Below, piece after piece: positions 1,778 to 1,865 of a stretch of DNA of 15,078 nt. Under the pieces are notes generated by a model that was given only the letters and a program-made list of their open reading frames with translations, did not search any database and was not told the origin of the DNA. The stretch's first letter is position 1. Each line of letters opens with the position of its first letter. Made by a program: the position numbers and the translations under genes. This DNA comes from Candidatus Heimdallarchaeota archaeon (GTDB lineage Archaea > Asgardarchaeota > Heimdallarchaeia > Hodarchaeales > Hodarchaeaceae): the NCBI GenBank assembly GCA_048881705.1, contig JBHLSH010000086.1:1-15078 (forward strand). Direction: 5' to 3'.

Positions 1778-1808
1778 TGTTGACCTTAGCCATCCGTTTT
1801 GCCGGGGT

Positions 1809-1853
1809 TTTCTCTTCCACTCACGAAGCTGCGGCTGAAGGAGAGAACTCGAT
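1809..1853 (+). other. Non-canonical tRNA intron (45 nt) at position 8/9 of tRNA-Ser
   Basis: Strict hBHBh' motif. Outer helix G1801-C1856 and C1802-G1855; central helix CGGG(1803-1806)/CTCG(1848-1851); bulges GT|T and AT|A; inner helix TTCTCTTC(1810-1817)/GGAGAGAA(1840-1847). Confidence 0.88.
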
Positions 1854-1865
1854 AGCCAAGCGGAC

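What the first reader, a model, noticed from the sequence alone, without database searches (positions are those of the whole stretch)
1793..1864. 5' leader acts as a splint: upstream genomic sequence pairs with the D-loop exon to extend the BHB of the 8/9 intron
Seen: continuing the register fixed by the BHB, leader TCCGTTTT (1793-1800) pairs with exon-2 CAAGCGGA (1857-1864). The pairs are T1799-A1858, T1798-A1859, T1797.G1860, G1796-C1861, C1795-G1862, C1794-G1863 and T1793-A1864, with a single T1800/C1857 mismatch. The 2-bp outer helix thus becomes 9 of 10 pairs. As a rough guide, 7 consecutive pairs in a pre-set register at ~1/3 chance each is about 1 in 2000. Established: complementary leader sequences drive trans-splicing of split tRNAs (Nanoarchaeum, Caldivirga), and RNase P needs a folded acceptor/T arm. 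Inference: a cis-acting leader stabilises a non-cloverleaf fold so that EndA can excise the 8/9 intron before RNase P removes the leader. That would be a leader-dependent maturation checkpoint; I am not aware of it being described for cis-spliced tRNAs.
Basis: partly seen in the sequence, partly recalled or inferred. Interest (0 to 1): 0.8.

Follow-up and report, generated by a model that had tools for sequence, protein, structure and literature searches.

The report
tRNA leader that props up a splice site
In this Asgard archaeon a serine tRNA gene has an intron only eight bases from its start, and the untranslated leader just upstream pairs with the tRNA's own D-loop to build the helix the splicing enzyme needs; this pairing is conserved and co-varies across the genus, and I found no published description of such a helper.

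Summary
Window 1801-1972 (+) is a three-intron tRNA-Ser(UGA) gene that ARAGORN and Rfam miss. Its first intron (1809-1853, position 8/9) sits in a strict hBHBh' motif whose exon-exon outer helix is only 2 bp. In the same register, leader 1793-1799 pairs with D-loop 1858-1864: 7 pairs, about 1 in 1150 by chance.

Comparative data carry the case. All 15 same-genus gene copies with the 8/9 intron keep the pairing, although flanks and intron interiors have diverged. One pair shows G-C, G.U and A-U states. Four of seven intron-less copies lack the complementarity. One nested clade of three keeps it, probably as a relic.

In silico the leader raises the BHB conformer by 30- to 100,000-fold. The same D-loop bases form the central helix of intron 2, so the two folds exclude each other.

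Not shown: the transcription start, the order relative to RNase P, and dependence of cleavage on the leader. This is a new variant of a known kind. This scan has already noted similar leader helpers on other DNA (Asgard, Bathyarchaeia, DPANN); I did not test those.

The parts
1749..1761 (+). TATA-like A/T stretch inside the last codons of the upstream ORF; candidate tRNA promoter (inference only)
   Evidence: Sequence. Other tRNA genes of this genome carry TATA-like boxes centred about 27-36 nt upstream of the mature 5' end. This one is about 46 nt upstream, which would give a leader of roughly 20 nt. No TSS data are available.
1789..1791 (+). Distal leader strand (-12..-10) pairing with the first bases of intron 2 (1867-1869)
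   Evidence: It is in the MFE folds. The equivalent helix, leader -13..-10, is predicted de novo by RNAalifold on 14 orthologues; its four pairs hold in 86-100% of sequences.
1793..1799 (+). Leader strand (-8..-2) of the splint helix; U1800 (-1) is invariant but lies opposite C1857
   Evidence: 7 pairs with 1858-1864, 97.8% of cells paired over 15 orthologues. Pair -5/C16 occurs as G-C 12, G.U 1 and A-U 2.
1801..1808 (+). Exon 1: tRNA positions 1-8. Positions 3-6 form the BHB central helix and positions 1-2 the outer helix
1809..1853 (+). Intron 1 (45 nt) at position 8/9, in a strict hBHBh'
   Evidence: central helix 4/4, outer run 2, inner run 8. One search shows the central helix 98% paired, with G-C/G.U variation on the intron side.
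1854..1865 (+). Exon 2 (A9 to C20a): D-stem 5' strand and D-loop. 1858-1864 pairs with the leader, and 1860-1862 is also the 5' strand of intron 2's central helix
1866..1888 (+). Intron 2 (23 nt) in the D-loop (20a/20b), in a relaxed BHB here (central helix 3 of 4)
   Evidence: 4 of 4 central pairs in 17 of the 22 gene copies and 3 of 4 in five, including G000 and G001; the spliced product is tRNA-Ser(tga).
1889..1906 (+). Exon 3: end of D-loop, D-stem 3' strand, anticodon stem 5' strand, anticodon UGA (1903-1905), G37
1907..1926 (+). Intron 3 (20 nt), canonical 37/38, strict hBHBh'
   Evidence: central helix 4/4, outer run 8, inner run 3.
1927..1972 (+). Exon 4: A38 to discriminator G73, with the long variable arm, T-arm and acceptor 3' strand 1965-1971. 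No encoded CCA

Best explanation
The 5' leader of pre-tRNA-Ser(UGA) is a cis-acting helper for the 8/9 intron. [quoted passage not shown] Only bases 1-2 are then left for the exon-exon outer helix, and the GC-rich acceptor stem competes for the same strand. Leader bases -8..-2 pair with the D-loop, and in most species -13..-10 pair with the first bases of the D-loop intron. This lengthens the outer helix from 2 bp to about 9-13 bp, makes the non-cloverleaf BHB fold competitive, and probably lets it form during transcription, before the 3' acceptor strand exists. After cleavage the same helix would hold the 8-nt 5' exon next to exon 2 for RtcB ligation. Once intron 1 is gone the stacked helix loses most of its support in several of the modelled species. 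The acceptor stem then forms, RNase P can remove the leader, and the D-loop bases are freed to build the BHB of intron 2. Shown: the pairing, its conservation, its covariation, its association with the intron, and the presence of the enzymes. Inferred: that the leader is transcribed, the order of events, the ligation-splint role, and the dependence of cleavage on the leader.
For: Geometry and the 7-pair extension. The chance level is about 1 in 1150, and 0 of 24 other tRNA genes reach it. All 15 intron-bearing gene copies in the genus keep the helix, including one decaying copy, with 97.8% of cells paired; slid controls give 20-45%. There is one compensatory pair (G-C, G.U, A-U) and two independent U.G to C-G changes. 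RNAalifold predicts BHB, leader helix and a second leader helix without being told. Leader -14..-1 is 0.6-1.0 identical, whereas -40..-15 (0.2-0.6), most of the trailer and the intron interior are poorly conserved. Four of seven intron-less copies (G011, G005, G019, G013b) have unrelated leaders in the same synteny. Thermodynamics: the cost of the BHB core falls from 9.0 to 4.6 kcal/mol with an 8-nt leader and to 3.3 kcal/mol with a 12-nt leader. With the leader, P(BHB) is 5e-3, the same range as the canonical 37/38 BHB of the same RNA (1.4e-3); without it, 4e-7. Across 13 orthologues the leader raises it 30- to 100,000-fold. In G000 the leader helix drops from 0.18 to 6e-5 once intron 1 is removed, and the acceptor stem rises from 0.64 to 0.98. 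The genome encodes two EndA paralogues, RtcB and RNase P RNA.
Against: In several orthologues the best TATA-like box would put the start near -7 to -9, at the edge of the helix. Three intron-less species (G010, G015, G017; one clade) keep the full complementarity, so the helix is not strictly tied to the intron. Covariation amounts to perhaps one evolutionary event among related species. The invariant U at -1 is unpaired in the model and unexplained. Absolute BHB probabilities are low in every model. The drop of the leader helix after splicing holds in 11 of 13 orthologues, not all. An (alpha-beta)2-type EndA may cleave relaxed motifs without a long outer helix.
Confidence: 0.72

Rival explanations
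1. The leader is conserved for a reason unrelated to intron 1, such as an initiator or promoter-proximal element, RNase P recognition (U at -1), or a folding or timing role for the D-loop intron. Its fit to the BHB register would then be incidental.
For: Conservation extends to -14 and includes an unpaired invariant U-1 and a conserved pyrimidine-purine step at -10/-9 that could be a start site. Three intron-less species keep the leader. The leader pairs with the bases that intron 2 needs, so it could in principle delay intron 2.
Against: Four intron-less copies in the same synteny lack it, so it is not needed for expression, RNase P processing or intron 2 removal, and all 22 copies have intron 2. 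A promoter element does not explain a G-C to A-U double change matched to D-loop position 16, or the exact continuity with the BHB register.
Confidence: 0.15
2. The leader is a neutral relic or hitch-hiker. The complementarity arose with the intron, for example from the insertion event, and persists only through linkage and short divergence times.
For: The intron-less clade G010/G015/G017 shows that the leader can persist without the intron. In silico the leader helix hardly forms without the intron, so keeping it costs little.
Against: Neighbouring neutral sequence is close to saturated: -40..-15, most of the trailer and the intron interior show about 0.2-0.6 identity, while -14..-1 stays at 0.6-1.0. 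Most of the changes that do occur preserve pairing.
Confidence: 0.08
3. The match is pure chance in this window and has no biological meaning.
Against: It recurs in all 15 intron-bearing gene copies across a genus whose proteins differ by up to about 0.5 changes per site.
Confidence: 0.02

Closest known systems
Non-canonical BHB introns of archaeal tRNA genes (Thermoproteales including the 3/4 site; heavily interrupted Asgard tRNA genes: PMC4090602, PMC11291895, bioRxiv 10.64898/2026.10.13.758758)
   Same: Same motif (4-bp helix, two 3-nt bulges, flanking helices), same enzymes (EndA, RtcB), several introns per gene, and the need for a non-cloverleaf fold for introns outside the anticodon loop.
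   Different: The held descriptions define the outer helix h as exon sequence and never mention the leader ('leader' occurs 0 times in the Asgard census). Here 7-11 of the outer-helix pairs come from non-tRNA leader sequence. By geometry a 3/4 intron must also use leader bases, but I could not read Sugahara 2008 or Marck and Grosjean 2003 to see whether that is stated.
Split tRNAs (Nanoarchaeum equitans, Caldivirga) and permuted tRNAs (Cyanidioschyzon, Thermofilum): complementary leader and trailer form the BHB (PMC4090602, PMC4033280, PMC3218864)
   Same: Non-tRNA flanking sequence supplies base pairs that build or stabilise a BHB and hold the pieces together for ligation.
   Different: In those cases leader pairs with trailer, between two transcripts or the two ends of one, and both flanks are cut off by EndA as a pseudo-intron. 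Here there is one contiguous gene, the leader pairs with an exon, it is not an EndA product, and RNase P must remove it afterwards.
Order of tRNA processing in Methanopyrus kandleri (PMC3695527)
   Same: An archaeal pre-tRNA with a leader, RNase P processing, and BHB introns that include a D-loop intron.
   Different: In M. kandleri end trimming precedes intron removal. The model here requires the opposite order for intron 1.
BHB processing stems of archaeal pre-rRNA (leader-trailer helices cut by EndA; PMC7714728)
   Same: A long helix made from flanking sequence presents a BHB to EndA.
   Different: That helix is leader-trailer rather than leader-exon, and there the flanks themselves are excised.

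Membership tests
Archaeal hBHBh' tRNA intron (Marck and Grosjean definition as encoded in 10.64898/2026.10.13.758758) | [quoted passage not shown] | tested here: met
   1803-1806 pairs with 1848-1851 (3 WC + 1 G.U). The helix is 98% paired in 15 orthologues.
Archaeal hBHBh' tRNA intron (Marck and Grosjean definition as encoded in 10.64898/2026.10.13.758758) | Two 3-nt bulges on opposite strands that contain the cut sites | tested here: met
   Bulges 1807-1809 and 1852-1854. RNAalifold reproduces both bulges.
Archaeal hBHBh' tRNA intron (Marck and Grosjean definition as encoded in 10.64898/2026.10.13.758758) | Flanking helices of at least 2 contiguous pairs (h exon, h' intron) | tested here: met
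   h is exactly 2 bp of exon (1801-1802 with 1855-1856). h' is 8 consecutive pairs starting at 1810-1847. The leader adds 7 + 3 pairs to h.
Archaeal hBHBh' tRNA intron (Marck and Grosjean definition as encoded in 10.64898/2026.10.13.758758) | Removal of the intron(s) yields a cloverleaf tRNA | tested here: met
   ARAGORN calls the spliced exons tRNA-Ser(tga).
Archaeal hBHBh' tRNA intron (Marck and Grosjean definition as encoded in 10.64898/2026.10.13.758758) | Splicing endonuclease and RtcB ligase encoded by the organism | tested here: met
   Two EndA paralogues with N and C domains. RtcB at 540 bits.
Archaeal hBHBh' tRNA intron (Marck and Grosjean definition as encoded in 10.64898/2026.10.13.758758) | Intron actually excised in vivo | not testable with these tools
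Split (trans-spliced) tRNA with complementary leader and trailer | Halves encoded at separate loci and transcribed separately | tested here: not met
   All four exons lie contiguously on one strand within 172 nt.
Split (trans-spliced) tRNA with complementary leader and trailer | The complementary flanks are themselves removed by EndA at the BHB | tested here: not met
   The leader lies outside both cut sites, remains attached to exon 1, and pairs with an exon.
Cis leader helper of 5'-proximal tRNA introns (proposed class; scan notes only) | Leader complementary to tRNA body in register with the BHB, conserved with the intron | tested here: met
Cis leader helper of 5'-proximal tRNA introns (proposed class; scan notes only) | Leader is transcribed and is required for cleavage or ligation | not testable with these tools
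   No RNA data and no biochemistry.

The most novel reading that the evidence does not exclude
BHB introns placed within the first dozen bases of an archaeal tRNA generally depend on a dedicated cis element in the 5' leader. The element builds the splice-site helix, holds the tiny 5' exon for ligation, and tends to dissolve once the intron is gone. This forces splicing to precede RNase P and orders the removal of several introns. It would be a self-resolving RNA switch that sets which intron positions are evolvable. The scan's notes on Asgard, Bathyarchaeia and DPANN genes would then be members of one unrecognised class.
Probability: 0.45. Interest if true: 0.75.

Novelty: new variant of a known kind. 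Interest (0 to 1): 0.62.

Why it matters
Asgard archaea carry the most heavily interrupted tRNA genes known, and what limits where an intron can sit is an open question. Current motif definitions count only exon and intron sequence. This locus shows that sequence outside the tRNA can supply most of the outer helix, which would explain how an intron survives at a site (8/9) where the tRNA offers only two pairs. Four consequences follow. It predicts an unusual processing order, with splicing before 5' maturation, opposite to M. kandleri. It predicts an ordered removal of two introns that share the same D-loop bases. It suggests that tRNA finders and BHB classifiers should look into the leader. 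It also offers a simple in vitro test system.

Tried and rejected
- ARAGORN and Rfam at gathering thresholds find no tRNA in the window, so the gene had to be reconstructed by hand.
- The alternative placement of intron 2 (1869-1893) also gives a valid tRNA. I rejected it because no BHB forms there and the orthologues support 1866-1888.
- Inferring the TSS from TATA-like boxes was inconclusive. Their spacing differs between orthologues, and in one intron-less species the box would place the start inside the tRNA.
- Search for independent replicates:
  - The own genome has no other intron this close to a tRNA 5' end.
  - The class-wide pattern finds the 8/9 Ser intron only in this genus.
  - A phylum-wide pattern for a Gly 8/9 intron found nothing.
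Only one hit had an acceptor complement, and it had no BHB.
- Literature: Marck and Grosjean 2003, Sugahara 2007 and Tocchini-Valentini 2011 are not held. Prior mention of leader use, especially for 3/4 introns, therefore cannot be excluded.
- The idea that the leader serves intron 2 is rejected: it pairs with the very bases intron 2 needs, and intron-2-bearing genes exist without it.

Full report
**The gene.** ARAGORN and Rfam report nothing in the window. Reading 1801-1972 by hand shows a class II tRNA with acceptor strands 1801-1807 and 1965-1971, a T-arm at 1948-1964 and anticodon UGA at 1903-1905. A scan for strict BHB geometry finds two perfect motifs. One is 1808/1853, with a 4/4 central helix, a 2-bp outer helix and 8 consecutive inner pairs. 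The other is 1906/1926, the canonical 37/38 intron. A third intron lies in the D-loop. Orthologues place it at 1866-1888, with a central helix that uses G15, C16, G18 and G19 of the D-loop. Joining the four exons gives a sequence that ARAGORN calls tRNA-Ser(tga).

The genome is a 3.96-Mb, 41% G+C assembly. Earlier scan notes on eukaryote-type OST and RPB5 genes place it in the Asgard archaea (I did not test this). It encodes two EndA paralogues, RtcB and RNase P RNA.

**The observation.** After the 2-bp outer helix (G1801-C1856, C1802-G1855) and the U1800/C1857 mismatch, 1799..1793 pair with 1858..1864 (six Watson-Crick pairs and one G.U). Random genomic 7-mers do this in 1 of about 1150 trials. 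None of 24 other tRNA genes of the genome reaches 7/7 in the same register.

The minimum-free-energy folds of 1785-1985, 1785-1977 and the nascent 1785-1900 all contain the helix. They also contain three further pairs, 1789-1791 with 1867-1869, after a 1x2 internal loop.

**Comparative evidence.** The gene lies 13-24 nt downstream of a conserved OSTC-like ORF in all 21 species of the genus in which it was found.

- *Copies with the intron.* Fifteen gene copies carry the 8/9 intron, and all fifteen keep the leader complementarity. On their alignment 97.8% of the leader-helix cells are paired. Sliding the partner by 1-3 columns gives 20-45% for the whole structure.
- *Covariation.* The pair between leader -5 and D-loop position 16 occurs as G-C (12), G.U (1) and A-U (2). 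This is a compensatory path whose intermediate is still extant. The U.G pair at -4 became C-G twice. The intron side of the central helix varies between C and U opposite invariant exon G's.
- *De novo prediction.* RNAalifold, given only the alignment, returns the two 3-nt bulges, the central helix, the outer helix and the leader helix. It adds a second helix between leader -13..-10 and the first bases of the D-loop intron. On that extended structure 94.6% of cells are paired.
- *Conservation profile.* Per-site identity is 0.6-1.0 from -14 to -1. It is 0.2-0.6 from -40 to -15, and 0.2-0.4 in the trailer beyond its first four bases. The intron interior barely aligns. The leader is therefore under selection, not merely young.

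**Copies without the intron.** Seven gene copies lack the 8/9 intron. Four of them have unrelated leaders: G011, G005, G019, and the second copy in G013 that sits behind a decaying intron-bearing copy. Three (G010, G015, G017) keep the full complementarity.

On a tree of the upstream protein these three form one clade, nested in a supported group (93/90) that otherwise contains only intron-bearing species. This suggests a single recent loss. The tree is short and poorly resolved.

In silico the leader helix of G000 is populated only while intron 1 is present: 0.18 before against 6e-5 after its removal. A leftover leader would therefore cost little. I read these three as relics, but they show that the link between leader and intron is not absolute.

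**Energetics.** All values are ViennaRNA equilibrium estimates at 37 C.

| G000 full-length precursor | Cost of BHB core (kcal/mol) | P(BHB core) |
|---|---|---|
| No leader | 9.0 | 4e-7 |
| 8-nt leader | 4.6 | 5.5e-4 |
| 12-nt leader | 3.3 | 4.7e-3 |

The value with a leader is in the same range as the central helix of the canonical 37/38 BHB in the same RNA, 1.4e-3. In 13 orthologues the leader raises the 8/9 central helix 30- to 100,000-fold. Absolute values are low because the model penalises bulges and ignores the enzyme, so only the differences are informative. After intron 1 is removed, the acceptor stem of G000 rises from 0.64 to 0.98. The accompanying fall of the leader helix is seen in 11 of 13 orthologues.

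**Mechanism proposed.**

1. The leader, the 5' exon and the D-loop exon form one long interrupted helix as they are transcribed, well before the 3' acceptor strand is made.
2. EndA cuts both bulges.
3. The leader helix and two exon pairs keep the 8-nt exon in place for RtcB.
4. Loss of the intron removes the stacked central and inner helices.
5. The acceptor stem wins, and RNase P removes the leader.
6. The freed D-loop bases then form the central helix of intron 2. In all 22 copies that helix uses the same bases as the leader helix, so the two folds cannot coexist.

Only the pairings, their conservation and the presence of the enzymes are shown. Transcription of the leader, the order of steps and the dependence of cleavage are inferred. 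The order would be the reverse of that measured in Methanopyrus kandleri, where ends are trimmed before introns are removed (PMC3695527).

**Comparison with the literature.** Several sources describe complementary leaders only for split or permuted tRNAs, where leader pairs with trailer and both are excised:

- reviews of archaeal tRNA introns and disrupted tRNA genes (PMC4090602, PMC4033280);
- the permuted and split tRNA paper (PMC3218864);
- the C. merolae paper.

The 2026 Asgard census defines the outer helix as exon sequence, and the word 'leader' does not occur in it. The Atabeyarchaeia/Freyarchaeia paper reports the intron load only. Full-text searches for leader plus BHB plus intron returned nothing more.

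The classic motif papers are not held. Introns at 3/4 in Thermoproteales must by geometry use leader bases. An earlier remark on this may therefore exist, and my claim of novelty is limited to the held literature.

Within this scan, similar leader helpers were noted on other genomes: tRNA-Leu and tRNA-Gly in Asgard, tRNA-Thr and tRNA-Asn in Bathyarchaeia, and tRNA-Trp in a DPANN archaeon. I did not test those notes. My own attempts to find independent replicates failed.

**Verdict.** The 'checkpoint' remains a reasonable but untested corollary. I class this as a new variant of a known kind, with moderate to high interest.

Noticed in passing
window 8-140 (+): A second interrupted tRNA gene, tRNA-Ala(CGC). 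It has a 30-nt insertion in the D-arm whose exact site is ambiguous because GTGAA is repeated at both ends, plus an anticodon-loop intron. The contig starts 7 nt upstream, so its leader cannot be read here. G001 holds a 98% identical copy.
   Followed up: partly
This gene-tRNA synteny holds in all 21 species of the genus in which the gene was found. The ORF's last codons (YDFKT-type) form TATA-like A/T runs that may double as the tRNA promoter.
   Followed up: partly
L034 (G013), two copies about 190 nt apart: A tandem pair of tRNA-Ser(UGA) genes. The syntenic copy, with the 8/9 intron and leader, has a mutated acceptor 5' strand and no matching 3' strand, so it looks like a pseudogene. The downstream copy is intact, lacks the 8/9 intron and has an unrelated leader. 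This suggests that the intron was lost by gene replacement rather than by precise deletion.
   Followed up: partly
L039, L040, L041, L042, L046, L049, L050, L034 (orthologues): Eight orthologous copies carry an additional intron of about 25-30 nt inside the T-loop or T-stem (for example in G007, G010, G015, G017, G005, G019). G000 lacks it. The intron complement of this one gene therefore ranges from two to four within a genus.
   Followed up: no
G000 contigs C28:20140-20394 and C27:10542-10802 (L067, L068): There are two splicing-endonuclease paralogues (182 and 213 aa), each with N- and C-terminal EndA domains. The second matches the fused M. kandleri EndA-like chain (5x89) best. This is consistent with a heteromeric, broad-specificity enzyme, but I did not analyse it further.
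   Followed up: partly
window 1800: The base at -1 is U in all 15 intron-bearing copies, and also in the three intron-less copies that retain the leader, although it lies opposite C12 and is unpaired in the model. The reason is unknown; a preference of RNase P is one possibility.
   Followed up: no
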